A stretch of DNA of 64,000 bases from positions 23,808,001 through 23,872,000 of the forward strand of contig OZ024749.1 of assembly GCA_964016885.1 (NCBI GenBank). The letters run 5' to 3'. Within the stretch, counting starts at the first letter, position 1. Every line of letters starts with the position of its first letter. The position numbers and the translations under genes were made by a program. Below, piece by piece: positions 756 to 63,594 of this stretch. The notes under the pieces were generated by a model. That model searched no databases, had not been told where the DNA came from, and worked only from the letters and a program-made list of their open reading frames with translations. The DNA is from Eledone cirrhosa. Lineage: Eukaryota.

Positions 756-1006
756 GTAGGAGGTGAGTTTTATTGTAGTACAATAAAGCAATGCAGATAT
801 CGTGTAAGAAGCACTCTACAGTTTGTAGGACTGGAGTATACATAATATATAAGAACAAAAGATGGTTAAAAGAGTTCCATGTATTTTATTATGCGCATTT
901 CAAAAACAAATATCATCATGCAATAATATTTGTGTTTTCATCAGATAAAATAGGAAGACATGATATGAAGGTTAAAAAACACTTGTGGATATGTTGATTT
1001 AAAACT
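756..1006 (-). mobile_element. Solo 3' end (pLTR) of the Penelope-like element, with HHR at 884-950
   Basis: Reverse complement of 41260-41513. Minus strand reads ttttat-CTGATGA-aaacacaaatattattgcatgatgatatttgttttt-GAAA-tgcgca-TA-ataaaa; abuts (TA)n. Confidence 0.85.
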
Positions 1007-7010: not shown

Positions 7011-7096
7011 ATCTTTTATTAATCTTTTGTTCACTTATCACGGGACTTGTTGAAAAGCTGGAGACACCGTTAGCTCCCTATATAAAAACTGAAACA

Positions 7097-11608: not shown

Positions 11609-11804
11609 TTGCCAGAAATAATAACAGAACACACTCACTGTTTGGTTGGTCCTCGCTTCTGTATATTTTATATCTCGACAGTATATATATGGGAGAGGGT
11701 GTATGTGCCTATATATATATATATATATGTGTGTGTGTGGTTATATATATATATATATATATATATGGGGGGGGGTGTATGTGCCAATATATCTGTGTGT
11801 GTGG

Positions 11805-14155: not shown

Positions 14156-14222
14156 ATTACTGTAATGTGTTACTAATTAATTGAATTATTAGCTTTTTAT
14201 CCATGCAGCGCCAAGAACATAT

Positions 14223-14285
<63 letters not shown>

Positions 14286-14286
14286 T

Positions 14287-14323
<37 letters not shown>

Positions 14324-14370
14324 TATTTATATATATATAATATATATATAATATATATGTATATATATAT

Positions 14371-14449
<79 letters not shown>

Positions 14450-14850
14450 ATATGTTCTTGGCGCTGCATGGATAAAAAGCTAATAATTCTATTAATTAGT
14501 AAGACATTATTTCTGAAGACGGCATATATATGTGTTGGTATGTATATTTAATTTTGATAGTTTGTATAATTTTGTATAATTTTGTACATAGATCTGTTGA
14601 ATATGCATGCCAATTCTAACACATATATATCCTAGAAACGATCGTTAAATAATGAACTTTTTTTGTTTAATATAAAGAACTGTTTCATTGTTTTATTCAT
14701 TATTTTTTTAATATTTTATCTTGACTCTGTATTCCGTTTATCTTTCACCAAAAGTGATTTTTCATTCCATCTCTTCTTTCCATGATATCCGGATTACATT
14801 GAGTTCTTCATACGGATTGGACACTACCGTAAACACTTGGTAGATTTATC
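14156..14850 (+). mobile_element. HHR element (HHR 14506-14653) with inverted copies of its end around a TA array
   Basis: attattt-CTGAAGA-long stem II-GAAA-CGATCG-TT-aaataat; 14165-14230 is the inverse of 14441-14510. Confidence 0.7.
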
Positions 14851-22900: not shown

Positions 22901-23037
22901 GGGTTACGTCCCTTTACGGTCTGAGTTCAAATCCCGCCGAGGTTGACTTTGCCTTTCATCCTTACGGGGTCGATAAAATAAAGTACCAGTAATGCACTGG
23001 ATAATTGCTGGCCTTGTGCCTAAAGAAGAAACAATTA
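22901..23037 (+). mobile_element. 5'-truncated SINE in the RLE domain with 20-bp target duplication
   Basis: attattggtgctacgggtta at 22887-22906 and 23034-23053. Confidence 0.9.
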
Positions 23038-25530
23038 TTGGTGCTACGGGTTATATACCAACCCGCTTGGACCAAAGTATGACTGAACTTGGATTTGCGG
23101 ACAAAAAGCGCAGCTCCCTAATTCATAGTCTACAAATGTCTGCGATAGCTGGCACCTTCAAAATTTGGCAAAATATTCTTGCGATTCAAGGGATGACAAT
23201 TTCTTTTCTTTTACAACCTTGCCACCAGGAAGGTGGCCGGTCAAAAAAATATACTCGAAATTAAGAGAAAGAGAAAACATACATACATACATACATACAT
23301 ACATACATACATACATACATACATACATACATACATACATACATACATGTATATTTGTATATAGATACGTGTATGTAACAATATCCGTATGTGTGAAAAG
23401 GAAAAAAGAAAGCAGTGTTCGATACAATATATTATATATTCATGTTCATGCGTGGAACAAAGGCACTACCAAATATTTATACATATGTACCTATGTAGTG
23501 ATTACGATTGAAGGAGGTTGAGAATTCTCATGTACCTTTGACCCTCGATATCCCTGCATCGGCTGCACTGACCAAACTCATTGCAGTAATTCATTAATTT
23601 GTCGCCAGCAGCAACATCAATATAACCATATCCACCCAGTTCCAAATCACACGCATCGTTACGTCAGTGGTAGCAGAATATTCTGAACTATTTACTGCCA
23701 TAAATTTATCAATATATATGTACTTTAAATATGTATTGGCTCCCCAAATCAATTTTATTACCTGGTTAGTCACACACAGACTTTCATGTTGCTTTGTATG
23801 ATTAAAGTAAGTATATCAATGCTTAAAACATGTAACTTTGTTTTTCATATCTGTTCCATTTTCTTTTGCTTTTTATCGTCTTAGGCGAAATAAGCACTGT
23901 ATATATTATTTTACTGTATCGTAGTATATTCCTATTTCCATTCTGCATATATATTTTGATTACATTCGTCTTTTGTTGTTGTTGCAACTTTTCCCAAAGC
24001 TTTTGATTCGGTAAATCTATTAGGTTTTCTAAACCAGCTCCAGCCCACTGATCCGCTGCTTATCTCCAGTTTCCATGGAATTAAACGTACCACGACGGAC
24101 GTTGTTAACATGACAATACAGCCGATGATTACATCAGCGAATTATACCACCTTGCGATAATTACTTGCAGCCAGCAAATACACACTCCATTTCTCTTTTC
24201 TATATTCTTTCCTCCTCTTACCACACACTACATCATCGTATTTGAATACAATTGCTGTAAATTGAATTGACTATACGCACAATCGTTTCAAATAGGTTTT
24301 ACCCTCGAATATATACAGCTAGGTATTTAATCAGATTACGACAAGTATCTAACTAGTTTTTACATCAATTGAGAGGTCGAATTGAATAGTGTGCAATATC
24401 CAGTGTACAGTATGTAGTGAAGATAATGCGTAGCCATGAAATGACCAAGGGAATATAATATAGGATTTTGATTTCTCTCACATTTAACCGACACCATTCA
24501 CTCGTAAGCCACCGGAGAAGCTTTCTTTGATGTTCCATGACCAAGAAGCTAAACTCTGCATATTCTATTTTATATAGCTTCAGGAAATGTATAGCTGTAC
24601 ATGCACGTAATCTAGTTGTTTGTGTGTTGGAATATCGAACATAAAGTTGCAGGAACGGATCCTGGACTCTGGCAGGGGTGTTTGTTGAGTATAGTGATTG
24701 GTTTTCACGTTAAATTTCATAACAGGAGGGTTATTCCTATATTCGAAACACATAAGTAACATTCTATGAGACACTACCGCTTAGTAGACTTACTAAACAT
24801 GTGGACCTATAGATTTATTTCAATTTCGTACTTGGACACCATACATTTGAGCTCGTCCATAAGATCGGAACGACGGTAGCCCTCTGAGGTAGGAGCCTCA
24901 CCAGGTGGATGGCTGTTGCAGCTGGCCATTGTCGGCGGTAATGCTTTTGCTGTCTTGTCCGCGGGTCGCAGCCCCTCTACCTCCGCTCTCTAGGCCCAGA
25001 GCCCAATCATTCTTCCCCCATTCCCATTCTTCTCTGACACTGTAGATGTTTCCATTCGCCATTTTCCGGGGTTTTTTTCATTCTTTTTTATCTTTTTTCT
25101 CTATATTTTCAAACGTTACATTCCATTCATCTCAATCTGAATTTGTTTTTCTATTTCTACTAAATTGTATTTGCATGTATACTCCATAAATAATATAATT
25201 CGTATTGTTTAAATGAATAAATATATAAATATATATATATAATACACGGTACAATACATACAGGCAGGTGGAACTGATGCGACCGATTTTCTGAAGTATG
25301 ACAAACCTTAGCGTTATTTATAAAAAGTATTTATAAAAAATAATTTTCTCTTATTGGTTTCGATTTCTGGTGTGTGACAATATTGATACAGAGTTTTAAA
25401 ATAATTTTGATGCTGATATCGATGTAAATAAGCTATTTTTATGATGCGTAACACTTATCTATGTTATCTAGATCTAACTTACGAGGTACAAACAAACAAT
25501 TAACGGAAACACAAACACAGATGCTCCCCC

Positions 25531-27283: not shown

Positions 27284-27285
<2 letters not shown>

Positions 27286-28575
27286 CGTTATTCCGGGTTG
27301 AATCGGAGGTAACCACAGTAAGTAAGGTACTCAATACATTGCAGAGTATAAAAGATTTAATATAGATGAGATTCTACAGGACTAGAACTGTTTCCTTCTT
27401 TAGAAATTATCAGGAATCTGGGTATCAACAGCATGGTTTCTTGATGATGGTTATAAGGACCACAGAGAGTGCTAACAGTACGTTATTCCGGGTTGAATCG
27501 GAGGTAACCACAGTAAGTAAGGTACTCAATACATTGCAGAGTATAAAATATTTAATTATAGATGAGATTATACAGGACTAGAACTGTTTCATTCTTTAGA
27601 AATCATCAGGAATCTGGGTATCAACAGCATGGTTTCTTGATGATGGTTATAAGGGGCACAGAGAGTGCTAAATGTACGTTATTCCGGGTTGAATCGGAGG
27701 TAACCACATTAAGTAAGGTACTCAATACATTGCAGAGTATAACAGTTTTAATATAGATGAGATTCTACAGGACTAGAACTGTTTCATTCTTTAGAAATTA
27801 TCAGGAATCTGGGTATCAACCGCATGGTTTCTTGATGATGGTTATAAGGGGCACAGAGAGTGCTAACAGTACGTTATTCCGGGTTGAATCGGAGGTAACC
27901 ACAGTAAGTAAGGTACTCAATACATTGCAGAGTATAAAATATTTAATATAGATGAGATTCTACAGGACTTGAACTGTTTCATTCTTTAGAAATCATCAGG
28001 AATCTGGGTATCAACAGCATGGTTTCTTGATGATGGTTATAAGGGGCACAGAGAGTGCTAAAAGTACGTTATTCCGGGTTAAATCGGAGGTAACCACAGT
28101 AAGTAAGGTACTCAATACATTGCAGAGTATACAAGTTTTAATATAGATGAGATTCTACAGGACTAGAACTGTTTCATTCTTTAGAATCATCAGGAATCTG
28201 GGTATCAACAGCATGGTTTCTTGATGATGGTTATACGGAGCACAGAGATTGCTAAAAGTACGTTATTCCGGGTTGAAGAGACCTATAAAAACCATACTTA
28301 GTTTTTGATACCCAGATTCCTGATGATTTCTAAAGAATGAAACAGTTCTAGTCCTGGAGAATCTCATCTATATTAAAACTGTTATACTCTGCAATGTATT
28401 GAGTACCTTACTTACTGTGGTTACCTCCGATTCAACCCGGAATAACGTACTTTTAGCACTCTCTGTGCCCCTTATAACCATCATCAAGAAACCATGCTGT
28501 TGATACCCAGATTCCTGATGATTTCTAAAGAATGAAACAGTTCTAGTCCTGTAGAATCTCATCTATATTAAAACT
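27284..28575. repeat. 195-bp tandem array (~5 units) plus inverted ~1.4 units, one HHR per unit (retrozyme-like)
   Basis: Equivalent positions at 27369, 27565, 27760, 27955 and 28150; inverted copies at 28314 and 28509; AGATTC-CTGATGA-tttctaaagaat-GAAA-CAG-ttctagtc-CTG-TA-GAATCT. Confidence 0.9.
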
Positions 28576-28601
28576 ATATATACACATATATATATATATA
28601 T

Positions 28602-28778
28602 AGGAACGAGTAAGACACCGACGGCTGAGCTGAAGCCGTTTCGACGGCTATCAGCCGTCGAAACGGCTTGAGCTCAGCCTTCGGGGTCCTACTCGTTCCT
28701 ATTAACCACTCTACAATCCTAAGTATTGAGTACTTTGGTGCGTTATGGTCCACCTGGTTCCTTACCTCATTTCCTTCG

Positions 28779-28780
<2 letters not shown>
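28602..28780. mobile_element. TA-flanked fold-back of the half-HHR family
   Basis: tttcgacggct-atc-agccgtcgaaa turn; arms match 2049-2180. Confidence 0.75.
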
Positions 28781-28823: not shown

Positions 28824-28825
<2 letters not shown>

Positions 28826-29398
28826 AATGGAATAGAATGAAACGAAATTTCATTTCTCACTCTTAGTACGGCTCAAACTTAAATGGAAGTATGTATGTAT
28901 ACATACATACATATATGTATACAGATGTACAGTAGCATGCATATATATATGTATATACATATATACATACAGGCACACACATATATATATGCACGTATCA
29001 GTTTACCGAAAATTTATTATAATGTTCGCTTTGTTCGTTTGTAAACAAAAGAACAGCCTGATTTACGCCGTACAGTGTTTAGGCGACCACGTCACGTTTT
29101 TTGTGCAACACTGACACAGGAACGATGTACTAGTTTCAAGCTTGTTAGCTATCGTTAGCACCGTATACCTTTCTGCCAGATGGTTGAACGTCCGAAAGTA
29201 TATACCTTCCTTATGAAAATTAACGGCTGAGCAGCCTAATTTGCATAGCAAGTGAGTTCAGTCGGCCAGGCGCACCAAAAACGATAAATGGAATAGGATG
29301 AAACGAAATTTCATTTCTCACTCTTAGTACGGCACTTACTTAAATGTAAGTATGTATGTATACATACATACATATATGTATACAGACGTACAGTAGCA

Positions 29399-29477
<79 letters not shown>

Positions 29478-29911
29478 GGATTTTAATGAATACAGTTTAG
29501 TTAAAAGGAATTTATTGACACGTGTTTCTATAACAGTTACATAACCTGAAAACAGCTTCTATCTATAAAGTATTAGTTATGCAGACATTCAATATTTCAA
29601 TGTTCAATACATACATACATACAGGCACACATATATATATGCACGTATCAGTTTACCGAACATTTATTATAATGTTCGCTTTGTTCGTTTGTAAACAAAC
29701 GAACAGCCTGATTTACGCCGTACAGTGTTTAGGCGACCACGTCACCTTTTTTTGTGCAGCACTGACATAGGAACGATGTACTAGTTTCAAGCTTGTTAGC
29801 TATCGTCAGCACCGTATACCTTTCTGCCAGATGTTTACAAAAGAACAAAGCGAACATTATAATAAATGTTCGGTAAACTGATACGTGCATATATATGTGT
29901 GCCTGTATGTA

Positions 29912-29977
<66 letters not shown>

Positions 29978-30410
29978 TGCTACTGTACGTCTGTATACAT
30001 ATATGTATGTCCGTATACATACATAATTACATTTAAGTAAGTGCCGTACTAAGAGTGACAAATGAAATTTCGTTTCATTCTATTCCATTTATCGTTTTCG
30101 GTGCGTCTGGCCGACTGAACTCACTCGATATGCAAATTAGGCTGCTCAGCCGATAATTTTCATAAGGAAAGTATATACTTTCGGACATTCAACCATCTGG
30201 CAGAAAGGTATACGGTGCTGACGATAGCTAACAAGCTTGAAACTAGTACATCGTTCCTGTGTCAGTGTTGAACAAAAAAGGTGACGTGGTCGCCTAAACA
30301 CTGTACGGCGTAAATCAGGCTGTTCGTACGTTTACAAACGAACAAAGCGAACATTATAATAAATGTTCGGTAAACTGATACGTGCATATATATATGTGTG
30401 CCTGTATGTA

Positions 30411-34041: not shown

Positions 34042-36365
34042 AGGGTGGTGGATTGGTAGTATCGGTAGGGCACCGGACAGCATGCTGTGTAGCATAGAGA
34101 TGCGTTCCTTTACGTGCTGATTTTAAATCCGGCTGAGGTTAGGCTTGCCTTTCATCCTTGCGTGGTAGATAAAAAAGCACCAGTAATGAACTGGGGTCGA
34201 TTTAATCGACTTCCCCTCCCCCAAAATTGCTCGCCTTCTGCCTATAGTACAAATCATTATTTACTATTTCGGCATCATGCTTTATAGTGTACCCATTTAT
34301 GTTCTGAGTTCAAACTCCACCGATATAATTATTGCCTTTTTTACTTACTGAGTCGATAAAATAAATTACCATTGCTGCCACGGGGTTAATTTAATCGAAT
34401 TTCCCATTCCCTTTAAATTGCTGGCCTCGAGCCAAATGATCAAACAATTATTTACTATTGATTGTTTATTTAACTGCTAAGTCTAACAGGTCAAGAAGCC
34501 ACAAAAAGGTCAAATAAACCAGCAGGATTATACACAAAAGAGAAAAGGCAGCCTTCTTAACGCCGACATAGCATTCTATGTATCTCCTTAGAATTAGCAC
34601 CCTATTATTTTATACTATAATCAATTTACAATTCATCTTTCTTTCGCCGTCCAAATCTTCGTCTTCGAGTGATACTCATCTTATTGCTATCTTCGTTAGC
34701 TTCTCTTTAAACACCGTGCCAAATAAAAAACAATATAAACAACAGCAACGAAAACAACAAAAACTATCCACATTTTCAAACACCTTGTTACAACATTTCT
34801 AATAAAATCTAATGTTGCCAAATATTTTGAAATGTATAAAGAACTTACAGAGATTTCATGAGATAAATAACATCTTTATTTTGATGATATCCGCGAGTTC
34901 AAATCCCAACTACGTTAGCTTTGTCTTTCGACGCTAGGGGATCGATAACATGAAATACCAGTAACGCATTGATGTCGATCTACTCGACTATCCACTCCCC
35001 AAATTGTTGGCCTTGTGCCTAAATCAGAAACCATTATTATCACTAGCAGAAAAACCACCCAATTATATATGCATGTAAATATGATACATCAAATAAAATC
35101 GCAATTGACAATACACACAGAAATTGAAGAGAGACTGTGTTACAGTGTCTTCTGTAATCAGTAAAGTAATCCATGATACATTTAAAAAAGACGATATTGT
35201 ATATATACTGAATTACGAGGAAATGTAATAAAAATGAAAAGGGAGAAAATTAGCGACACAAATATAAACGTTAAGAGATAACAATGCAAATATATGAAGG
35301 TTTATATAAGCGATGTAATATAGCGTCCGTTATATAATAACCGGAAGTGTTGACATTTGAAAATTTTAAAAGAAGTGAATCTTAATATAAGCATTTGCCT
35401 TTCATCCTTACGGGGTCGATAAAATGAAGTACCAGTAATACACTGGGTAATTGCTGGCCTTGTGCCTAACGTAGAAACAATTATTTATTCAAAGTAATCC
35501 AACTTATTTTACTAACGGGATAAAAAAAAAATATTCAGGACACAATCCCGCATTCCTCCTTTATTATATTATGATGGACTTAGTGAGCTGAAATCCCGCG
35601 AGGTTTAGCTTTGTATTTGATCATTTCGGGGTCGATAAAATAATATACCAGTAATGTACTGAAGTCAATTTATACGACTTTCACTGTCCATAAAAATTGT
35701 TGGCCTTGTGTCAAATATAGAAACAATTGTTATGAAGCTGTCAGGGTAGGTGAGTGGCTCAATCGCTATAGCACCGGGTAAAACCTCTTGAAACATATGA
35801 TTTAGCTCCAAAAATTCTGAGTTCGAATTCCGCATAATGAATGTAACTTTGCCTTTCATCATTCAGAAATCAATAAAATAAAGCTCCAGTAAATTACTAG
35901 GGTTGATATAATAAAACTTACCCTTCCCCTTAAAATTGAGTGTCTTGTCCTTTAATCAGAGACCATATGGATTGGCACTATCTGTAGAGGATCTGACGCC
36001 ATGCTTTGCAGCATAGGGTTACGTCCCTTTACGATATAAGTTCAAATCCCGCCGAGGTTAATTTTGCCTTTCATCCTTACAGGGTCGATAAAATAAATTA
36101 CCAGTAATGCACTGGGATAAATTCTGGCCTTGTGCCAAAAGTAGGAACAATTATTAAACTTGGGTAGGACATTAGAGTCTCAGTATTAGTAGGACATGGG
36201 ACAACATGCTTTGCGGCATGTAGTTATGGCCCTTTACTTTAATGTGTTCAAATCCTCCCGAGGATTATTTGGCTTTTTTTTTATTGTTATGGGTTCACAC
36301 ACTAAGGTCGATTCACTCGCCATTTCTCAAAACAATTTGTTGGCCTTGTTCCTATATCCGAAACG
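34042..36365 (+). mobile_element. Co-oriented cluster of ~8 Meta-domain-like SINE copies
   Basis: Repeated cores and tails near 34042, 34275, 34890, 35395, 35590, 35745, 35970 and 36165. Confidence 0.75.
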
Positions 36366-36649
36366 TTGGTAACCTGGATGTTAAAACATATCTTATAGCT
36401 AATATTTTATTATAAAATTATGTAGGAAGCTTTTAACATAAATATGGAAAATCTAACATTAAAATATACATAAAATAATAATCATAGCCCAAGGGCGGAT
36501 TTTGGCAATTTGGTAGCAAAAGTCTTGCATGTTTTATAAGACAAAAAAATATATACATATATGCGTATATATTATATATAGAAACGCACTCTCATAAGTA
36601 TAGAAACATACACACATACAGACACACAGCCACAAACACACGTATATAC

Positions 36650-36689
<40 letters not shown>

Positions 36690-36856
36690 CTATGCACACA
36701 TACACACACATATGTGTGTAGATATAATATATATAAATATGTGTATATATATATATATGTGTGTGTGTATATGTGTATGTGTATATATATATGTGTGTAT
36801 ATGTGTATGTATATATATATATATGTGTGTATATGTATATATATATATATATATAG

Positions 36857-36902
<46 letters not shown>

Positions 36903-36907
<5 letters not shown>

Positions 36908-37882
36908 GAGATCAAAAGATGGTTAAAAGTGTTCCATGTATTTTATTATGCGCATTTCAAAAAGAAATATCATCATGCAATAACATTTGTGTTTTCATCA
37001 GATAAAATAGGAAGACATGATATGAAGGTTAAAAAACAATTGTGAATAGTGCAGTTTTAAATCGACATACGAAAAGTAGTTTTAGATTGATGTGTGATAT
37101 TGGGAAAAAAATGTTTGATGGGGAGGATATGAAAAAGAGGAGGAGATGAGAGTAAAAAGTGGAAGGGAGGAGTATAATGAGGAAGGATGAGATAGGAGGA
37201 GAGATGGATGATAGAGAGAGAGAGATAGCTTTTATAACTGAGAAAAATATATTGTTTTACATAGAGAGGTTGAAAAACCGTTGGAAGATAATATATAAAT
37301 TAAAAGAATTTGAAAATTAACGAAGAGAAAATAATGTTATGTTAAGGTTTGTATATTGAAGGGTTTAATAATATGTGCGATGAAAATAAATTGTTAATAT
37401 GTATTAAGAATAATATTTAAGTGTTTAATAATATGTGCGATGGAAAGAAAATGTTAATATGTATTAAGAATAATATTTAAGGGTTTAATAATATGTGCGA
37501 TGGAAAGAAAATGTTGATATGTATTATTAAAAAAACAATAGTAATGTAAGTAAGGATATATTAGATGATCATGAAGGGAGAAAAAGATAATGAATTGAGG
37601 ATGAATAATCTAACTTCAAAAAATGTTTACGTTTACGAAGGATTTGTTCAAGGTGATATAAAGTAAGAATATATTGTACTGTGTAATAATTGTTTCTATG
37701 TTAGGCACAATGAGAAAAAATACAGGTAAGGGGTTAGAAATTAAAAGAAAAAGGAAAAGAAAAGGAAAAGGAAGAAAGGGAAGTGATAAATAGGAGTGAT
37801 ATAGAATGAGTAACTAGTATTATATAATGTATAATAAATAACTTTGAAATAAGTTAGAAGGATGGGTATATTTTTAAAGAAG

Positions 37883-37914
<32 letters not shown>

Positions 37915-40900
37915 CCTTTGAGAAAAGGATTTTAAATTGATAAAGTATTAGATATTAGCTGTATAATTTATGGAATGTTCTGTGGAATGTATGCAAGCAG
38001 AGAGAAAACAAGTCAGTGCGTCTATTTATTATAGAATCTAAATTAGATATAATGGTAAATTTTTCATTTAAACAGAGATTGCAAGTCTTGGATAGAGAAC
38101 TGTTCAAGTATGGAGAAGCAGAAGCAACCTTTTTCCAAGAGATGTTATATTTAATATTTTTGTCTTGCAAGGACCATATGAGTTCTGAGAGTGCCGTGTT
38201 GGTTCTTTTAAGTTGGTATTTAAAAGACGAATGATGATTATAAAGACGAGCTTTAAAGGAGGTGGAAGTGGAGCCAAAATAGGTGAAGGAATTGGTGTGA
38301 GTTATAACTTTACATTCGTAGATTAAGTTTTTTTCAAGACAATGGTTGTTGAGAGCACATTTATTTTTAACAGGGCAATTGCGACTAGAGAGGTTAGCAG
38401 AGTTATTAACGAGTGACCTAGTGTTATCTATAGAAGGAATTGGATTGGAGAAGTTATTTACGATAGGAATAATGGTTTCTTGTTTTAGAATGGGATTAAG
38501 AACATTTAGCGAAGTTGTGTTTGACGTTGTATTTGGGTTTTCAGAAATTAGCCTAGAGTTTACAATGACGTCGGGAGTACTATTACTATTATTATGATAT
38601 TCAGTGTTGGAAGGAAGATATTTAGTATTTAGTATTTTATTGTTGTGTTTAGAGATAATGTTGGAAATGTTGGAGGAGGTCGAATAGGAAAATGTTATAG
38701 TGTGTTTGTTAAATATTTTACTATAGATATGTGAGGGAGGGAAGCATTTATTTAAGGCACTAAAGAATAATTTAGGAATATTATTATTAATGAGATGGAG
38801 AAAGGAGCATTATACCAGATTATGTTTTTGTATCTAGGTCTTTTATTAAAGTTATTGGAATGATCATGATTAAGTATTCTACTGTAAGATCTTCTAGAAT
38901 TTGTTTCTTTACTATATTTGATTTTATCAGGATAGCCGGCTTTAGAAAGCGCGTTATTATAGTAATTGGCGTTAGCATCAAAGATGTTTTTATTAGAAGA
39001 TAGGTTAGATATTCTTTTTCCAATATTACTAACTATAGCATTCTTAATATTAGTGGGGTATTTAGATTTAAAATTAACATAATTTAGGTTCTCATTGTTT
39101 TTATGGTAAGGGTAATATAGGCCAGTGTCAAGATTAAGAGATACATCCAAGAAATTAGCTAGTTTGATGCTGTTATCAATTCAATTTTTAAGTCATGTTA
39201 GTTAAAGAGATTACGTATATTGTTCTTAATAATATTAAAATTAACTAGGTTGCAATTTAAGATAGTAAAGAGTCCATCGTCACGATAAATTCCACCGCGA
39301 AGTTGAGGAATTTTCCGACTCAAGGAGTTCAAAATAAAGATACCAATTAAATCTGTCAATTGGGCTGAATCGGATGCTCCCATTGTGATGTCGAAGTTGT
39401 TAGAGGTATCAGCTCTATTACTATAATAACGCGCTTTCTAAAGCCGGCTATCCTGATAAAATCAAATATAGTAAAGAAACAAATTCTAGAAGATCTCACA
39501 GTAGAATAAGTAATCATGATCATTCCAATAACTTTAATAAAAGACCTAGATACAAAAACATAATCTGGTATAATGCTCCTTTCTCCATCTCTATTAATAA
39601 TAATATTCCTAAATTATTATTCAGTGCCTTAAATAAATGCTTCCCTCCCTCACATATCTATAGTAAAATAGTTAACAAACACACTATAACATTTTCCTAT
39701 TCGACCTCCTCCAACATTTCCAACATTATCTCTAAACACAACAATAAAATACTAAATACTAAATATCTTCCTTCCAACACTGAATATCATAATAATAGTA
39801 ATAGTACTCCCGACGTCATTGTAAACTCTAGGCTAATTTCTGAAAACCCAAATACAACGTCAAACACAACTTCGCTAAATGTTCTTAATCCCATTCTAAA
39901 TCAAGAAACCATTATTCCTATCGTAAATAACTTCTCCAATCCAATTCCTTCTATAGATAACACTAGGTCACTCGTTAATAACACTGCTAATCTCTCTAAT
40001 CGCAATTGCAATTGCCCTGTTAAAAATAAATTTGCTCTCAACAACCATTGTCTTGAAAAAAACTTAATCTACGAATGTAAAGTTATAACTCACACCAATT
40101 CCTTCACCTATTTTGGCTCCACTTCCACCTCCTTTAAAGCTCGTCTTTATAATCATCATTCGTCTTTTAAATACCAACTTAAAAGAACCAACACGGCACT
40201 CTCAGAACTCATATGGTCCTTGCAAGACAAAAATATTAAATATAACATCTCTTGGAAAAAGGTTGCTTCTGCTTCTCCATACTTGAACTGTTCCCTATCC
40301 AAGACTTGCAATCTCTGAAAAATGAAAAATTTACCATTATATCTAATTTAGATTCTATAATAAATAGACGCACTGACTTGTTTTCTCTCTGCTTGCATAA
40401 ATTCCACAGAACATTCCATAAAGTATACAGCTAATATCTAATATTTATCAATTTAAAATCCTTTTCTCAAAGGCACATATATATATATATATACTTCTTT
40501 AAAGATATACCCATCCTTCTAACTTATTTCAAAGTTATTTATTATACATTATATAATACTAGTTACTCATTCTATATCACTCCTATTATCACTTCCCTTT
40601 CTTCCTTTTCCTTTTCTTTTCCTTTTTCTTTTAATTTGTAACCCCTAATCTGTACCTTTTCTCATTGTGCCTAACATAGAAACAATTATTACACAGTACA
40701 ATATATTCTTACTTTATATCACCTTGAAAAAATCCTTCATACACATAAACATTTTTTGACGTTACATTATTCATCCTCAATCCATTATCTTGTTCTCCCT
40801 TTCATGCTCATCTAATATATCCTTACTTACATTACTATTGTTTTTTTAATAATACATATCAACATTTTCTTTCCATCGCACATATTATTAAACCCATTAA

Positions 40901-41509
40901 TATTATTCTTAATACATATTAACAATTTCTTTTCATCGCACATATTATTAAACCCTTCAATATACAAACCTTAACTTAACATTATTTTCTCTTCGTTAAT
41001 TTTCAAATTCTTTTAATTTATATATTATCTTCCAACGGTTTTTCAAACTCTCTATGTAAAACAATATATTTTTCTCAGTTATAAAAGCTATCTCTCTCTC
41101 TCTATCTCCCATCTCTCCTCCTATCTCATCCTTCCTTATTATACTCCTCGCCCTCCACTTTTTACTCTCATCTCCTCCTCTTTTTCATCATTTCCCCCCC
41201 CTCCATCAACATTTTTTTTAGCAATATCACACATCAATCTAAAACTACTTTTCATATGTTGATTTAAAACTTCACTATTCACAAGTGTGTTTTAACCTTC
41301 ATATCATGTCTTCCTATTTTATCTGACGAAAACGCAAATGTTATTGCATGATGATATTTGTTTTTGAAATAATGCGCATAATAAAATACATGGAACTCTT
41401 TTAACCATCTTTTGATCTCATATATCATGTATACTCCAGTCCTACAAACTGTAGAGTGCTTCTTATCCGATATCTGCATTGCTTTATTGTACTACAATAA
41501 AACTCACCT

Positions 41510-41513
<4 letters not shown>
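36903..41513. mobile_element. Penelope-like element (RT plus GIY-YIG) as a ~2.1-kb-arm inverted duplication, both ends in (TA)n
   Basis: Minus strand: ITMGASDSAQ..GIYRDDGL (RT), YYNNALSKAGY, C-rich linker, LIYECKV..YFGSTSTSFKARLYNH (GIY-YIG), CNLCLNEKFTII. 39417-41425 is the inverse of 36903-38966; HHRs at 36941-37007 (-) and 41317-41386 (+). Confidence 0.9.
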
Positions 41514-41565
<52 letters not shown>

Positions 41566-42820: not shown

Positions 42821-43384
42821 CATATATATATATTAATGCGTTCGCACACACACACATATATAAATATATATATACACGAGAACAAACATTTATATGAGAA
42901 CAAGTGTTACCTTACAATGTCACTTGATATAGTATTCTATAAAGTTTTATTTTACTATTTTACTATTTACATGAAACTCTGTAACACGTTTCTCCAAGAT
43001 ACTTCACTAAAATAATTTCTCGTTGGCGTGATGGTTACCTCTCTATAATTCTTAATGTTTTTGTTTCGTTCTAAATATGGGTTATTGTGTCTAGTCAAAT
43101 ATGAAACCATTAATTCAAGACTGGCTGACATCCATGTATCATAAATATTTATCAATTTATTATAAATAGTTACAAATAGGAAAACATATATATAATCAAA
43201 AATATATATAACCAACTACCAAAAAAAACAACAACACATTAATACCACTAATAACAGAAATAAAACTATCAGCACTGCCACAAATATCACTACCGCCAAT
43301 AGCATCAAGATCAACAAGAACATCAACGACAACCATACCACCAACAACAACAATAAAGCCACAATCACCACCAACAATAAAGAA

Positions 43385-43592
43385 TTCTAGTATAGGCACA
43401 AGGCCAGTAATTTGGAGGGACAGGAAAGATTAAATCGACCCAAGTACATTACTGGTGCTTTATTTTATCGACCCCGTAAGGATGAAAGGCAAAATTAACC
43501 TCGGCGGGATTTGAACTCAGACCATAAAGGGCCGTAACTCTTTACTGCAAAGCATGGCGTCCGACTCTCTACCGATACTGCCAATCCACCGC
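43385..43592 (-). mobile_element. Full-length Meta-domain-like SINE
   Basis: Reverse complement of the SINE consensus including the ggcggtggattggcagtatcgg head. Confidence 0.85.
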
Positions 43593-43659
43593 CAACCATA
43601 ATAACAAGAAGAACGACGACAACGGTACCACAATCCCCAACGGCAACAACAACTACACT

Positions 43660-46605: not shown

Positions 46606-47250
46606 AACTTTGAATAACTTTTAAATGTTTTGGCCAGTATTGGCCCAGGCCATGTCTAACTTAATAGCACCACCTGGCGAAGTCTTTCAATTCAGGATTT
46701 GGGCACCATCGCCCATTCGAGAAGAGAATTACTGTTTGCGGAGACATATCCGGGTGTGGGTGGTTTGTCCGGGATTACTTGGAGGAATTTGTCCAAAGAC
46801 TTCTTGAATTTTGTGTGGTCAGTTTCTGTTTTGACGTGTCCTGGTGTGATGTTGAAGAGAGCAGGGCCGATTGAGGTGAAATAATTGTGCCGTATTGTTG
46901 TTATGAGTTGCGATTTAGATTTTTGAATGGGACGGATAGCACGGGGCCCAAGCCTTGGGTGTATCTTGAAGGCGATGCCAACATCATTTGGGCAGTGATG
47001 ATGGAACATTTTCCACATCATGCAGATAATATAACGCTCACGGCGACGTTGGAGTGAGTAAAGTTTCAGGTTTTCCAATCGACCCCAGTAGTCAAGGTCT
47101 GACATGCCATCTATCTTTTTCGTGATTGCCCTTTGAGGAGCTTCAAGTTTCATGATACTTTGTTTCGTGTGGGGAGACCACAGTGGACAACAGTATTCAA
47201 GGTGTGGTCGGGCGAAAGTAGAGAAGAGAAGGATAATGGTGCGGGAATCT
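46606..47250 (-). mobile_element. CR1/L2-group LINE 3' fragment, copy 1
   Basis: [14 protein letters not shown]...[10 protein letters not shown]; ttcaaagtta-type tail; TA-type repeats on both sides. Confidence 0.9.
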
Positions 47251-47323
47251 ATATGTATGCATATATATATATATATATATATATATGGATTCATATATAT
47301 ATATATATGCATATATATATATG

Positions 47324-47371
<48 letters not shown>

Positions 47372-47379
47372 TATGTATG

Positions 47380-47415
<36 letters not shown>

Positions 47416-47443
47416 GATATGTATATATATATATATAGATATG

Positions 47444-47476
<33 letters not shown>

Positions 47477-47575
47477 GTATATATATATGTATATGTATAT
47501 ATATATGTATATGTATATATATATGTATATGTATATATATATGTTTATGTATATATATATATGTATATATATATG

Positions 47576-47606
<31 letters not shown>

Positions 47607-47607
47607 G

Positions 47608-47641
<34 letters not shown>

Positions 47642-47726
47642 CATATATATATTTATATATATATATATATATACATATATATATTTATATGTATATACAT
47701 ATGTATATATATATATATATATATAA

Positions 47727-47785
<59 letters not shown>

Positions 47786-47865
47786 CATATGTATATATAT
47801 ATATATATACATATATATACATATATATATTTATATATACATATATATATATATATATACATATG

Positions 47866-47901
<36 letters not shown>

Positions 47902-47925
47902 CATATATATATACATACGTATATA

Positions 47926-47967
<42 letters not shown>

Positions 47968-47968
47968 C

Positions 47969-48040
<72 letters not shown>

Positions 48041-48043
48041 CTA

Positions 48044-48073
<30 letters not shown>

Positions 48074-48077
<4 letters not shown>

Positions 48078-48424
48078 AACCAGTAAGGCCCCAAAAGTCT
48101 GGATACGGCGTGGTAGGGTCGGAAAGTGCTCTACTACGGGAGTAGGAGTTAGATAACGAAGGAAATGTGGTAAGGAACCAGGTGGACCATAACGCACCAA
48201 ATTACTCAATACTTGGGGTAGTAGAGTGGGTAATAGGAACCAGTAAGGCCCCAAAAGTCTGGATACGGCGTGGTAGGGTCGGAAAGTGCTCTACTACGGG
48301 AGTAGGAGCTAGATAACGAAGGAAATGTGGTAAGGAACCAGGTGGACCATAACGCACCAAAGTACTCAATACTTGGTGTAGTATAGTGGGTAATAGGAAC
48401 CAGTAAGACCCCAAAAGTCTGGAT
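48074..48424. repeat. 160-bp tandem repeat (~2.2 units) related to the half-HHR family
   Basis: taggaaccagtaag at 48074, 48234 and 48394. Confidence 0.85.
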
Positions 48425-48702
48425 AGTTCAGTTTTAAATCAACATATATATTGATTTAAAACTGAACTATCCACAAGTGTTTTTTAACCTTCATATCATG
48501 TCTTCATGTTTTATCTGATGAAAACACAAATATTATTGCATGATGCTATTTGTTTTTGAAATACGCATAATAAAATACATGGAACTCTTTTAACCATCTT
48601 TTGAACTTATATATTATGTATACTCCAATCCTACAAACTGTAGGTGTTTATTATACGATATCTGCATTGCTTTATTGTATTACAATTAAACTCACCTCCT
48701 AC
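48425..48702 (+). mobile_element. Solo PLE 3' end with HHR (~48509-48575) and short fold-back
   Basis: Matches 41260-41513; tagttcagttttaaatcaa/ttgatttaaaactgaacta inverted at the left end. Confidence 0.85.
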
Positions 48703-48735
48703 ATATATGTATATATATATATATATGTATATATA

Positions 48736-48766
<31 letters not shown>

Positions 48767-48827
48767 ATATATATATATATATGTATATATAATATAAATA
48801 TATATGTATATATAATATATATATATA

Positions 48828-49009
<182 letters not shown>

Positions 49010-49054
49010 ATATATATATATATGTATATATAATATATATATATATATATATAT

Positions 49055-51002
49055 GTAACCTCCAAAACAATATGATGTCTATCATCAACAATCAGAGAAG
49101 AGCTGAAGAGGCCTGGGCCATTGAGAAGATCAAACTCAATCCCAAAGTGTTCTTTTCATTTGCAAAAAAAAAAAAAAATCAATGCCTCCACTGTTGGCCC
49201 TCTAATTGATGAAAATGGCACTCTTCAAAACAATGCTAAAACCATGGGTGAGATACTGCAGAAACAATACTGCTCTCTTTTCAGCAATCCAGATATGGCC
49301 GATCTGGGCTGTATCGGCGATGTTACTCCCCATTACACCTTATCGGACATAACGTTTGGCGCCCCTGATGCCTTAGCGGCCATAAAGGAAATCAAGCATA
49401 GTTCAGCAGTAGGTCCCGATAGGTTCCCTGCTAGTGTCTTGAAGGCGTGTCAACACCAACTTGCATCTCCTCTTGCAAATCTGTGGCGGAACTCACTGGA
49501 TGCTGGATATGTGCCAGAAAACCTTCTATCCCAGTCTGTTATCCCAGTTTTCAAAAAAGGAAACAAATCCCTTGCCGTGAATTACCGTCCAATCTCACTC
49601 ACCTCTCATATCATTAAGATATTTGAGAGAGTGGTGAGATCGCGAATAACTCACTTCCTTGAGAGTAATAATATGCTGAACTCCAACCAGCATTGATTCC
49701 GTAATGGAAGGCATTGCCTGACGCAGCTACTGCATCACTTTGATGACATTTTGAGAGCCTTGGGAGAGGGTTCCAACACTGATGTTACCTACCTTGATCT
49801 ACATTCTAGTGAGAAAGCTGTCCAATATTGGTGTCACTGGAAAGCTGCTGCAGTGGATCAGGAGCTTCCTGTCAAACAGAACCCAACATGTTGTAGTCGA
49901 AGGAGTCAAATCAAGCCCAGCCAAAGTCAGTAGTGGGGTCCCACAAGGCACTGTGTTGGGCCTACTTCTCTTCATCATCTATATTAATGACATCACTGAC
50001 ATCATCAAACACAGCAACATTAGAATTTTCGCTGACGATTCCAGGCTCCAAAAGGTCATTGATGGCGTGGATGGCCGGATAAGCCTTCAGTCGGACCTAC
50101 TGGCTGTTACTCAATGGGCAGAAAAGAACAACATGTTACTGAACGAAGACAAATTCGAACTGATCCACTTTGGAAAAGAGGATGCTCTGAAACTCCCGTA
50201 CTCCCTTCCCTCCGGTGAAACTCTCGTGGCATCTAACAACATCAGAGAATTGGGAGTAACCGTGGACAGCAACATAAGCTGGGCCACGCATATAAGCAGC
50301 AAAGTTGACATGGCCCGCAGAATATGTTCCCGGATCCTCAGAACCTTCCAGTCGAGAGATTCCCACACCATTATCCTTCTCTTCTCTACTTTTGCCCGAC
50401 CACACCTTGAATACTCTTGTCCACTGTGGTCTCCCCACACGAAACAAAGTATCATGAAACTTGAAGCTCCCCAAAGGGCAATCACGAAAAAGATAGATGG
50501 CATGTCAGACCTTGACTACTGGGGTTGACTAGAAAAGCCGAAATTTTACTCACTCCAACGTCGCCGTGAGCGTTATATTATCTGCATGATGTGGAAAATG
50601 TTTCATCATCACTGCCCAAATGATGTTGGCATCACGTTCAAATTACACCCAAGGCTTGTGCCCCGTGCTATCCGTCCCTAACAAAAATCTAAATCGCAAC
50701 TCATAACAACAATATGGCACAATTATTTCACCTCAATTGTCCCTGCTCTCTTCAACATCACACAGGGACACGTCAAAACAGAAACTGACCACACAAAATT
50801 CAAGAAGTCTTTGGACAAATTCCTCCAAGTAATCCCGGACAAGCCACCCACACCCGGATATGTCTCCGCAAACAGTAATTCTCTTCTCGAATGGGCCATG
50901 GTGCCCAAATCCTGAATTGAAAGACTTCGCCCGGTGGTGCTATTAAGTTAGACATGGCCTGGGCCAATACTGGCCAAAACATTTCAAAGTTATTCAAAGT
51001 TA
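49055..51002 (+). mobile_element. CR1/L2-group LINE 3' fragment, copy 2 (stop codon and deletion)
   Basis: [22 protein letters not shown]; same family as copies 1 and 3. Confidence 0.9.
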
Positions 51003-54496: not shown

Positions 54497-56362
54497 TAAC
54501 TTTGAATAACTTTGAAATGTTTTGGCCAGTATTGGCCCAGGCCATGTCTAACTTAATAGCACCACCTGGCGAAGTCTTTCAATTCAGGATTTGGGCACCA
54601 TGGCCCATTCGAGAAGAGAATTACTGTTTGCGGAGACATATCCGGGTGTGGGTGGTTTGTCCGGGATTACTTGGAGGAATTTGTCCAAAGACTTCTTGAA
54701 TTTTGTGTGGTCAGTTACTGTTTTGACGTGTCCTGGTGTGATGTTGAAGAGAGCAGGGCCGATTGAGGTGAAATAATTGTGCCGTATTGTTGTTATGAGT
54801 TGCGATTTAGATTTTTGAATGAGACGGATAGCACATGGCCCAAGCCTTGGGTGTATCTTGAAGGCGATGCCAACATCATTTGGGCAGTGATGATGGAACA
54901 TTTTCCACATCATGCACATAATATAACGCTCACGGCGACGTTGGAGTGAGTAAAGTTTCAGGTTTTCTAATCGACCCCAGTAGTCAAGGTCTGACATGCC
55001 ATCTATCTTTTTCGTGATTGCCCTTGAGGAGCTTCAAGTTTCATGATACTTTGTTTCGTGTGGGGAGACCACAGTGGACAACAGTATTCAAGGTGTGGTC
55101 GGGCGAAAGTAGAGAAGAGAAGGATAATGGTGCGGGAATCTCTCGACTGGAAGGTTCTGAGGATCCAGGAACACATTCTGCGGGCCATGTCAACTTTGCT
55201 GCTTATATGCGTGGTCCAGCTTATGTTGCTGTCCACGGTTACTCCCAAGTCTCTGATGTTGTTAGATGCCACGAGAGTTTCCCCGGAGGGAAGGGAGTAC
55301 GGGAGTTTCAGAGCATCCTCTTTTCCAAAGTGGATCAGTTCGAATTTGTCTTCGTTCAGTAACATGTTGTTCTTTTCTGCCCATTGGGTAACAGCCAGTA
55401 GGTCCGACTGAAGGCTTATCCGGTCATCCACGCCATTGATGACCTTTTGGAGCTTGGAATCATCAGCGAAAATGTTAATGTTGCTGTGTTTGATGATGTC
55501 AGTGATGTCATTAATATAGATGATGAAGAGAAGTGGGCCCAACACAGTGCCTTGTGGGACCCCACTACTGACTTTGGCTGGGCTTGATTTGACTCCCTCA
55601 ACTACAACATGTTGGGTTCTGTTTGACAGGAAGCGCTTGATCCACTGCAGCAGCTTTCCAGTGACACCAATATTGGACAGCTTTCTCAGTAGAATGTTAT
55701 GATCAACCCTGTCAAAGGCCTTGCTGAAATCAAGGTAGATAACATCAGTGTTGGAACCCTCTCCCAAGGCTCTCAAAATGTCATCAAAGTGATGCAGTAG
55801 CTGCGTCAGGCAATCCCTTCCATTACGGAATCCATGCTGGTTGGAGTTCAGCATATTGTTACTCTCAAGGAAGTGGGTCATTCGCGATCTCACCACTCGC
55901 TCAAATACCTTAATGATATGAGAGGTGAGTGAGATTGGACGGTAATTCACGGCAAGGGATTTGTTTCCCTTTTTGAAAACTGGGACAACAGACTGGGATA
56001 GAAGGTTTTCTGGCACATATCCAGCATCCAGTGAGTTCCGCCACAGATTGGCAAGAGGAGGTGCAAGTTGGTGTTGACACGCCTTCAAGACACAAGCAGG
56101 GAACCTATCGGGACCTACTGCTGAATTATGCTTGATTTCCTTTATTGCCGCCAAGACATCAGGGGCGCCAAACGTTATGTCCGATAAGGTGTAATGGGGA
56201 GTAACATCGCCGATACAGCCCAGATCGGCCATATCAGGATTGCTGAAAACAGAGCAGTATTGTTTCTGCAGTATCTCACCCCTGGTTTTAGCATTGTCTT
56301 GAAGAGTGCCATTTTCATCAATTAGAGGGCCAACAGTAGAGCCAGTGATTTTGTGTTTTTTT
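54497..56362 (-). mobile_element. CR1/L2-group LINE 3' fragment, copy 3 (RT nearly intact)
   Basis: [36 protein letters not shown]; one frameshift near 55020. Confidence 0.92.
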
Positions 56363-57810: not shown

Positions 57811-58552
57811 ATATAGAATTCACATGAATGAACATTCTGTTCAAACCATTTAATAGCTTACAATTGTTTCATCCAAACCGAGGTTTGGTGTCTTCGGAAT
57901 ATTTTTCAATGTTTGTTTACATAAATGACCTCATTTCCAACACAAGAGACATACAGATACATATGTATATATTGATGCACAGTGGGGTGACATCCATTAT
58001 TATATATCTGAATGGCAATTTAAGTTCAAAAATTAAAATCATATTAAAACAGAATCAAAGCAAAGTTAAAATTAAAATACAACATCGGCAGTTAACGTAG
58101 ATAATGCAAGAGGATAGTTTGTTAGTCAGTTGTAGTAGTTATTGCATACAATAGTTACACGTGGGGCATGCACGTGTGTCTTATTTATATATGATTATAT
58201 TATAATTTATATATGATTGTATATTAATATATTATAATTTATATATGATTGTATATTAATATATTATAATTTATATATGATTGTATTTTAATTTTAATTT
58301 TGCTTTCATTCTGTTTTAATATGATTTTAATTTTTGAACTTAAATTGCCATTCAGATATATAATAATGGATGTCACCCCACTGTGCATCAATATATACAT
58401 ATGTATCTGTATGTCTCTTGTGTGGGAAAGGATGTCATGTATTGAAACAAACATTGAAAAATGCCCCGAAGTCTCCAAACCTTGGTTTGGATGAAAAAAT
58501 TGTGAGCTCATAAATGGTTTGAAAAGAACTTTGATTCATGTGAATTCTATAT
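57811..58552. mobile_element. TA-flanked fold-back element with U4C HHR-like motif
   Basis: Arms ~57811-58085/58280-58552; minus strand CCGAAGA-ca-ccaaacc-tc-ggtttgg-at-GAAA-CAATTG-TA. Confidence 0.75.
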
Positions 58553-59875: not shown

Positions 59876-61368
59876 ATAACTAGAAATTGATTAACATATA
59901 TATAAACATGAATAATCACAGGAGATAATTTTTACAAGTGTGTAACCACACATAGCTAGGTAGTAACTAATTACATTTGACTAGAACTTCAAAAATAGAT
60001 ACGTTATAATATGATTAATCTTCCCTGTATATATTCCATTAAAGAAATTTATTTCACCAATTAATCAGATGGTAAACCACGGAAGTGGAGATTTTGAATT
60101 TTCAACAAGGAAGAAAATTTCCAGCCATCCACGCTTACACTTCTAGTTCAAATCTGCAACTGGCAATTACCACGTGTTGTATTTACTATAAATACACACA
60201 TCATAGTAGCTTCGTTCCAGTGGCGTGAATAGGATTATCGACAACTAGAAACAGCAGTCAAGTCCTTTCAACATAGTTAGCTCTACAATTAAGGAGCCGT
60301 ATTTATATATCTATATCCAAAATTAAGATAAATTAAATGAATTTAATCTAAATCAAAATTATGGGTGTCATGCCAGAAAGAGATGCGCCATATCACCCGG
60401 AAAATAAGCTCCAAGATTCTAACGAGTAGGTACGAGCATTTTATAACTAGAAATTGATTAACATATATATATAAACATGAATAATCACAGGAGATAATTT
60501 TTACAAGTGTGTAACCACACATAGCTAGGTAGGTAACTAAATAAAGTTGACTAGAACTTCAAAAATAGATACCTTATAATATGATTAATCTTCCCTGTAT
60601 ATATTCCATTAAAAATTATCTCCTGTGATTATTCATGTTTATATATATGTTAATCAATTTCTAGTTATTATAAAATGCTCGGACGTACTCGTTAGAATCT
60701 TGGATCTTATTTTCTGGGTGATATGGCGCAAGTCTTTCTGGCATGACACCCATAATTTTGATTTAGATTAAATTCATTTAATTTATCTTAATTTTGGATA
60801 TAGATATATAAATACGGCTCCTTAATTGTAGAGCTAACTCTGTTGAAAGGACTCGACTGATGTTTCTAGTTGTTGATAACCCTATTCACGCTACTGGGAC
60901 GAAGCTACTATGATGTGTGTATTTATAGTAAATACTTCACGTGGTAATAGCCAGTTGCAGATTTGAACTTGTAGTATAAGCGCGGATGGCTCGAAATTTT
61001 CTTCCTTGTTGAAAATCATAAATCCCCACTTCCGTGGTTTACCATCTGATTAATTGGTGAAATATATTTCTTTAATGGAATATATACAGGGAAGATTAAT
61101 CATATTATAAGGTATCTATTTTTGAAGTTCTAGTCAACTTTATTTAGTTACCTACCTAGCTATGTGTGGTTACACACTTGTAAAAATTATCTCCTGTGAT
61201 TATTGATGTTTATATATATGTTAATCAATTTTGAGTTATTATAAAATGCTCGGACCTACTCGTTAGAATCTTGGAGCTTATTTTCCGAGTGATATGGCGC
61301 ATGTCTTTCTGGCATGACACCCATAATTTTGATTTTGATTACATTCATTTAATTTATCTTAATTTTGG

Positions 61369-61372
<4 letters not shown>
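59876..61372. repeat. ~567-bp tandem plus inverted repeat, TA-flanked
   Basis: ataactagaaattg at 59876 and 60443; orientation switch near 60611. Confidence 0.85.
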
Positions 61373-61400
<28 letters not shown>

Positions 61401-63325: not shown

Positions 63326-63371
<46 letters not shown>

Positions 63372-63374
<3 letters not shown>

Positions 63375-63553
63375 CGAAGGAAATGTGGTAAGGAACCAGG
63401 TGGACCATAACGCACCAATACTTAGGGTAGTAGAGTGGGTAATAGGAACAAGTAAGACCCCGACGGCTGAGCTCAAGCCGTTTCGACGGCTAAAATTAGC
63501 CCAGAATTAGCCGTCGAAACGGCTTGAGCTCAGCCGTCGGGGTCTTACTTGTT

Positions 63554-63556
<3 letters not shown>
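63372..63556. mobile_element. TA-flanked fold-back of the half-HHR family
   Basis: Arms 63443-63493/63503-63557, turning at gacggctaa...ttagccgtc. Confidence 0.8.

Positions 63557-63594
<38 letters not shown>

What the first reader, a model, noticed from the sequence alone, without database searches (positions are those of the whole stretch)
36903..41513. Candidate autonomous partner: PLE with the same TA-flanked fold-back architecture at kb scale
An RT-GIY-YIG element whose 3' ~2.1 kb is duplicated in inverted orientation around a ~450-bp spacer. Each arm ends in an HHR-containing 3' region that runs into (TA)n. Solo 3' ends at 756 and 48425 look just like the small HHR islands, linking them mechanistically to PLEs. 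The Cys-containing linker suggests the Neptune group (inference).
Basis: partly seen in the sequence, partly recalled or inferred. Interest (0 to 1): 0.72.

Follow-up and report, generated by a model that had tools for sequence, protein, structure and literature searches.

The report
Dead two-armed Hydra-clade Penelope insertion
This is a broken, head-to-head double copy of a Penelope-type jumping gene of the known Hydra group sitting in a TA repeat; across the genome its two outer ends stop at two different fixed points, which suggests that both cut DNA strands likely copy the same RNA, a testable clue to how these elements insert.

Summary
The anatomy is real; the labels are not. The arms are 36899-39416(-) and 39417-41511(+). 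The 450-bp 'spacer' is RT coding sequence of the longer arm. The clade is Hydra, not Neptune: CxCx5C linker, DKT, no internal CCHH. This copy is not autonomous (about 310 aa missing, frameshifts), but 4 of 30 near-full copies elsewhere keep a 794-799-aa ORF. It is partner only to its own 3' stubs (756, 48446); the 195-nt and 160-nt arrays belong to two other Hydra families (about 43-47% aa identity). (TA)n targeting, inverted truncated copies, a one-sided tail and hammerheads are all published. Less ordinary: 67 of 67 two-ended insertions pair one tailed end with one tail-less end; arms share rare alleles; in 19 of 60 pairs, this one included, neither arm contains the other; both ends lie 4-7 nt before a repeated motif. 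Best reading: both nicked target strands prime on one RNA at two fixed sites and the cDNAs are joined head to head (inferred). The scan already noted this on other DNA of this genome.

The parts
36643..36902 (.). left (TA)n/(TG)n target tract
36899..39416 (-). long tail-less arm (ends at site B); 5'-truncated at about aa 314 of 799
38967..39416 (-). the 'spacer': RT motifs 4-7 (FDITMG, YRDDG, FLDV), present only in the minus arm; frameshift near 39180
37955..38966 (-). thumb, Asn/Ser/Thr-rich linker, CxCx5C (damaged by a 6-nt deletion) and GIY-YIG EN (IYE..YFG, CNLC, CLH); frameshift near 38790
36939..37009 (-). minimal type I hammerhead core, palindromic stem III
39416..39417 (.). head-to-head junction: blunt, no microhomology, no inserted bases
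39417..41511 (+). tailed arm (ends at site A); starts at about aa 465
39419..40434 (+). thumb, linker and GIY-YIG EN; third Cys of CxCx5C is Phe; frameshift near 40318
41253..41253 (+). fixed 5' edge of short copies (32 of 51 short arms start within about 5 nt of it); candidate RNA 5' end (inferred)
41315..41388 (+). hammerhead core with a 3-nt insertion in stem III
41429..41511 (+). 'tail' of about 80 nt between site B and site A; absent from the minus arm
41433..41459 (+). RCTCC..GAGYGC motif 4-7 nt after site B; its twin lies 4-7 nt after site A in tandem copies
41512..41565 (.). right (TA)27 target tract
759..1003 (-). solo tailed 3' stub of the same family, with HHR
48420..48699 (+). tailed 3' stub of the same family starting at the fixed 5' edge, with a 28-nt inverted piece

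Best explanation
This is an inactive, 5'-truncated insertion of a Hydra-clade Penelope-like element in a (TA)n tract, likely made when both nicked target strands primed reverse transcription on one element RNA at two fixed internal sites and the two cDNAs were joined head to head. Shown: family and clade; TA targeting; one tailed (A) plus one tail-less (B) outer end; common ancestry of the two arms; blunt, microhomology or inserted central junctions. Inferred: (1) a protein from an intact copy elsewhere nicks both strands of (TA)n; (2) each TA 3' end pairs with a TA-like site 4-7 nt before one of two copies of a small RNA motif; (3) the two cDNAs copy the same RNA towards its 5' end, which needs strand displacement, and stop at random or at the RNA's 5' end (41253); (4) host end joining links their 3' ends. 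Early stops give the 180/260-nt HHR fold-back islands of this family; late stops give kb-scale forms such as this one.
For: Hydra motifs in intact copies: RLRW, DKT, divergent RT4 FDITMG, CNCPVKNKC, CNLC, CLH, no Cys pair between IYE and YFG (definition in PMC8557442 section 11). The predicted fold is closest to telomerase RT. 67 of 67 outward-facing end pairs are A+B, none AA or BB, in 97 loci; 43 of 43 in loci not selected on the A end, where independent choice of sites would give at most 50%. The arms of one insertion are closer to each other than to arms at other loci (mean rank 0.09 over 22 pairs; 0.5-0.7% against a nearest other of 1.3-2.0% in L036-L038). They share rare alleles, and 18 of 22 pairs differ at no common allele. 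The window's arms share 8 ORF substitutions, seven of them in at most 2 of 48-58 other arms. In 19 of 60 A+B pairs the tail-less arm reaches at least 20 nt further 5', so neither arm contains the other. Central microhomology of 4 nt or more occurs in only 15 of 78 junctions (null 2.4%), while 33 of 78 carry inserted bases and 15 of 78 have 0-1 nt. Ends lie 4-7 nt before the motif in 76 of 81 A ends and 63 of 70 B ends. In vitro, a Poseidon PLE cuts and extends both strands and initiates at two internal sites that bound the tail (PMC11167929).
Against: No biochemical or RNA data for this family. The window's arms differ at three common 3' UTR alleles plus one at the junction with TA (4 discordant sites, the most of any pair) and are not sisters in the 154-nt tree; two of the three are CpG transitions, but a template switch or later conversion is possible. 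Shared alleles would also follow from two RNAs of one source locus or from conversion between arms. Frangieh et al. saw no start-site difference between strands and no RNA-target homology. The twin motif was drawn after the fact, also hit once in unrelated sequence, and its folds are no better than shuffles. 0 of 29 upstream pLTRs of tandem copies start at the fixed 5' edge, so full-length copies need another template (read-through or circular). Arms that end at neither A nor B (e.g. L019, L125, L131) were not counted in the pairing.
Confidence: 0.7

Rival explanations
1. Self-priming: an antisense RNA or cDNA folds back and copies itself into a hairpin, and the endonuclease then resolves or trims the two ends at A and B (published proposals for PLE inversions and tails).
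For: Proposed in PMC3846280 (Discussion passages) and, for the tail, in PMC8557442. It predicts near-identical arms, as seen. Some microhomology excess exists, including 8 junctions on a natural CATATG palindrome.
Against: Snap-back needs pairing at the junction, yet 48 of 78 junctions have 0-1 nt overlap or inserted bases, and this one is blunt. In 19 of 60 pairs neither arm contains the other, so an extra trimming step is required. The Poseidon tail maps to RT start sites.
Confidence: 0.15
2. Twin priming on two separate RNAs, or two separate insertions into one TA tract, with arm similarity coming from a dominant source locus or from later gene conversion.
For: The window's arms differ at common 3' UTR alleles. 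The 48073-48699 composite joins pieces of two families.
Against: Independent RNAs should give AA and BB pairs; 0 of 67 were seen. There is no target DNA between the arms. Conversion does not explain the fixed end asymmetry.
Confidence: 0.12
3. Assembly or library fold-back artefact.
For: Palindromic chimeras are a known artefact (own knowledge). Public contigs were too fragmented to bridge the junction (inconclusive).
Against: The arms differ by 1.7-3.6% plus indels, each holds sequence the other lacks, and the same rule recurs at dozens of loci.
Confidence: 0.02

Closest known systems
Hydra clade of C-terminal EN+ Penelope-like elements, e.g. Hydra-1_Obim, Penelope-13_HM (Craig et al. 2021, PMC8557442; section 11, passages and supplement Files S1, S2 and alignment passages read)
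   Same: CxCx5C linker, DKT, RW motif, divergent RT4, no internal CCHH, CxxC and CxH, (TA)n target, canonical HHR near the 3' end; Penelope-13_HM is annotated with a 5'-truncated inverted copy.
   Different: A separate family: its N-terminus and HHR differ by eye from Hydra-1_Obim. The unit is about 3.7 kb (Hydra generally <3 kb) with a UTR of about 1.1 kb, a low-complexity linker insert of about 70 aa, a tail of about 80 nt (30-40 typical) and a long HHR stem II.
PAc, Poseidon PLE of Anolis, in vitro (Frangieh et al. 2024, PMC11167929; parts 1-2 of 4 read, covering the main text)
   Same: Both target strands cut and extended; two internal RT start sites bound the tail; HHR cleavage apparently not needed (here 5' ends do not pile at the HHR cut site).
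   Different: There, no strand-site coupling and no RNA-target homology; here strict A+B pairing and TA-like start sites.
Adineta vaga Penelope elements (Arkhipova et al. 2013, PMC3846280; passages read)
   Same: Head-to-head inverted pLTRs, optional tail on one of them, microhomology junctions, Asn-rich inserts between RT and EN.
   Different: Explained there by self-priming on an antisense template; few copies; not microsatellite-bound as here.
LINE-1 twin priming (recalled, not read here)
   Same: Both target ends prime on one RNA and the cDNAs are joined by microhomology.
   Different: In L1 the second site is variable and the arms barely overlap; here both sites are fixed about 80 nt apart and the arms overlap for kilobases.
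Non-LTR retrozymes as PLE derivatives (bioRxiv 10.64898/2026.07.22.740005; part 1 of 5 read)
   Same: Tandem HHR units derived from PLE pLTRs, like the 195-nt array at 27284.
   Different: This family's short forms are mostly head-to-head pairs, not tandems, and intermix with long copies in the tree.

Membership tests
Penelope-like elements (EN+) | single ORF with TERT-related RT and C-terminal GIY-YIG EN | tested here: met
   794-799-aa ORFs in 4 of 30 copies; top fold match TERT 3du5; EN assigned by IYE/YFG motifs and conserved R, H, E, N in alignment. Pfam gave no hit and no EN-only fold search was run.
Penelope-like elements (EN+) | pLTR, partial tandems, inverted 5'-truncated copy, one-sided tail | tested here: met
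Penelope-like elements (EN+) | type I hammerhead in the pLTR | tested here: met
   Core, 8-bp stem I, long stem II and palindromic stem III present; cleavage not tested; folding z-scores not significant.
Hydra clade | linker CxCx5C | tested here: met
   CNCPVKNKC in 4 of 4 intact ORFs; damaged in both window arms.
Hydra clade | DKG changed to DKT; RWK motif; divergent RT4 | tested here: met
   DKT in 3 of 4 intact ORFs (NKT in one); RLRWI (K not kept); FDITMGASDS.
Hydra clade | no CCHH inside GIY-YIG; CxxC and CxH around the E and N | tested here: met
   One non-conserved Cys between IYE and YFG; CNLC and CLH present.
Hydra clade | insertion in (TA)n | tested here: met
   172 of 178 ends against 13% background.
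Hydra clade | RT tree placement with reference Hydra proteins | not tested
   Named references were only read in the paper's supplement; by eye the protein matches the Hydra rows, not the Neptune rows. Homologues P0001-P0012 are unnamed.
Hydra clade | short unit (<3 kb, 'generally') | tested here: not met
   Unit about 3.7 kb (L032); a tendency, not a diagnostic.
Neptune clade | Cx2-5CxxC linker finger | tested here: not met
   The linker is CxCx5C.
Neptune clade | CCHH with two Cys between GIY and YIG; DKG | tested here: not met
Autonomous copy | complete uninterrupted ORF | tested here: not met
   Lacks about aa 1-313; frameshifts near 39180, 38790 and 40318.

The most novel reading that the evidence does not exclude
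Hydra PLEs integrate by coupled twin priming. One RNP holds one RNA with two copies of a small RCTCC..GAGYGC hairpin, and each hairpin places one of the two cut target strands, so every insertion has exactly one tailed and one tail-less end. This would explain the inverted pLTRs, the one-sided tail and the HHR mini fold-backs by a single mechanism, and this family supplies intact ORFs and a 260-nt minimal RNA to test it.
Probability: 0.45. Interest if true: 0.68.

Novelty: new member of a known kind. Interest (0 to 1): 0.42.

Why it matters
The locus itself is ordinary debris. The family statistics bear on an open question: how PLEs, the closest relatives of telomerase RT, make their inverted and tailed insertions. 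Published views differ (self-priming, EN resolution, two RT start sites). Strict A+B pairing with a shared template gives a sharp prediction that can be tested in the existing in vitro system, using natural intact ORFs (L051, L054) and a short RNA.

Tried and rejected
The repeat finder on the whole window was swamped by (TA)n. Rfam's listed hits were microsatellite-driven miRNA matches. Pfam and the PDB sequence search found nothing for the ORF. No RNA holder was listed. Logan contigs did not bridge the junction and showed nothing either way. A two-copy complex job for residues 1-490 gave no verdict. A separate non-autonomous lineage of short copies was not supported: short and long arms intermix, with 6 identical sets across groups, though the tree is weak. 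The HHR cut site as the 5' end of copies was rejected, since starts do not pile there. Folding of the HHR and of the twin motifs was no better than shuffles. Neptune and 'spacer' were rejected (see above). Six literature searches listed no paper stating strict A+B coupling; I read only parts of four papers, the library lacks most subscription journals, and the Frangieh supplements were not opened.

Full report
Observation. Self-BLAST shows inverted arms 36894-38966(-) and 39417-41433(+), 91.9% over 2094 columns, and same-family stubs at 759-1003 and 48446-48699. The minus strand reads on through the 450-nt 'spacer' as RT motifs 4-7, so the minus arm is 39416 to about 36899 and abuts the plus arm with no gap. 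The plus arm runs about 80 nt further 3', to 41511. Both arms and both stubs hold a type I hammerhead core with an 8-bp stem I, a long stem II and a palindromic stem III. Its folds do not beat shuffles and Rfam's listed hits did not include it.

Family and clade. The window lies in a 3.0-Gb genome. First-look candidate counts for this family were 557-2392 per query; these are not copy numbers. Of 30 loci found with the ORF's 5' part, 4 have a complete 794-799-aa ORF. The protein has RLRW, DKT (3 of 4), FDITMG, YRDD, CNCPVKNKC, IYE..YFG with no conserved Cys pair, CNLC and CLH. These are the Hydra features of Craig et al., not Neptune's Cx2-5CxxC plus CCHH. By eye it fits the Hydra rows of their alignment but is not Hydra-1_Obim; no tree with named references was built. 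The AlphaFold model (pLDDT 75.9, linker 580-655 disordered) is closest to TERT. The window copy lacks about 310 N-terminal residues and has frameshifts in both arms, so it is dead.

Target and ends. In 97 loci (12 duplicates dropped), 172 of 178 detected ends run into TA-like tracts, against 13% of background positions. Ends fall at two sites: A (41511 equivalent) and B (about 80 nt upstream). Of 68 outward-facing pairs, one was skipped for low cover (it was also A+B) and 67 of 67 were A+B. That includes 43 of 43 from queries not anchored on A, and full-length copies where either arm may carry the tail (L136-L138). Arms ending elsewhere were not scored.

One template. Over 22 overlapping pairs the partner arm ranks on average in the closest 9% of comparisons. 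Pairs share rare alleles, and 18 of 22 have no discordant common allele, against control means of up to 25. The same holds for 28 short pairs (1.6% against 4.6%). The window's arms share 8 ORF substitutions that are rare elsewhere, but differ at three common 3' UTR sites and do not group in the short tree. This is the weakest pair and remains unexplained.

Not a simple snap-back. In 19 of 60 A+B pairs, the window's included, the tail-less arm reaches further 5', so neither arm contains the other. Of 78 central junctions, 30 have at least 2 nt of microhomology (15 at least 4; null 2.4%), 15 have 0-1 nt and 33 have inserted bases. Some insertions may be mis-called where copies differ from my references, and one locus was counted twice.

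Short islands. In the HHR-anchored sample, 32 of 51 arms start within about 5 nt of 41253; I infer an RNA 5' end there. None of 29 upstream pLTRs starts there, so full-length copies probably use read-through or circular templates (inference). Short and long arms intermix in the tree, so the islands look like by-products of the same family. The 195-nt array (27284) and the 160-nt array (48073) adjoin ORFs of two other Hydra families, about 43-47% identical to this one (3 of 25 loci by position; 9 of 18 loci). This element is therefore not their master, though cross-mobilisation is not excluded.

Start signal. Earlier scan notes suggested paired hairpins next to the ends. Here an RCTCC..GAGYGC motif follows both B and A in tandem copies, 4-7 nt after the last template-matching base in 63 of 70 B ends and 76 of 81 A ends. 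The pattern was drawn after the fact, hit once by chance, and is not predicted to fold stably.

Comparison and verdict. Inverted truncated copies, one-sided tails, HHRs and (TA)n targeting are published for PLEs and for Hydra. Two-strand extension from two internal sites is shown in vitro for Poseidon. I found no statement of strict A+B coupling in six searches, with limited coverage. The locus is a new member of a known kind. Confidence: Hydra PLE and dead copy 0.95; coupled twin priming on one RNA 0.7; hairpin-directed starts about 0.45. Interest 0.42.

Noticed in passing
window 27284-28583 and 619-713: 195-nt tandem HHR-like array with an inverted partner. It is the pLTR region of a second Hydra family (ORF 44-47% identical at L149, L158), with its own two TA-joined end points.
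   Followed up: partly
window 48073-48425 (also 2051-2177, 28603-28779, 63368-63558): 160-nt tandem from the pLTR end and leader of a third Hydra family. It is joined directly to this family's stub at 48420-48699 inside one TA tract, a possible two-family composite. It carries similar ACTC..GAG motifs (by eye).
   Followed up: partly
G000:C1:91476558-91487327, C1:437200283-437211018, C2:356030027-356031664: Hits of the third family recur at about 3.53-kb and 299-nt periods, suggesting tandem arrays of whole elements and of short units.
   Followed up: no
window 46607-51000 and 54499-56348: About 1.85-kb inverted pair (94%) of another repeat between long TA tracts, with a direct 643-nt copy; identity not checked.
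   Followed up: no
window 12377-12827, 14163-14509, 28824-30385, 57816-58547, 60300-61385: Further inverted pairs, several next to TA tracts and some near CTGANGA cores; likely other PLE stubs.
   Followed up: no
window 7096-7209, 9876-10244, 11427-11682, 22903-23039, 35394-36156, 43376-43593: Abundant SINE-like family of about 110-260 nt, 72-97% alike between copies.
   Followed up: no
L053 aa 580-655; window 39760-39990: Asn/Ser/Thr-rich in-frame insert before CxCx5C, absent from the seven homologues aligned; it recalls the Asn-rich inserts of Adineta Penelope.
   Followed up: partly
A ends genome-wide: 11 of 92 A ends continue as TACACA(CA)n before (TA)n, perhaps reiterative copying of the template's ACA at initiation, a telomerase-like slip (inference).
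   Followed up: no
window 37353-37526 and 40850-40963: A 60-bp 3' UTR tandem has 3 copies in the minus arm and 2 in the plus arm.
   Followed up: no
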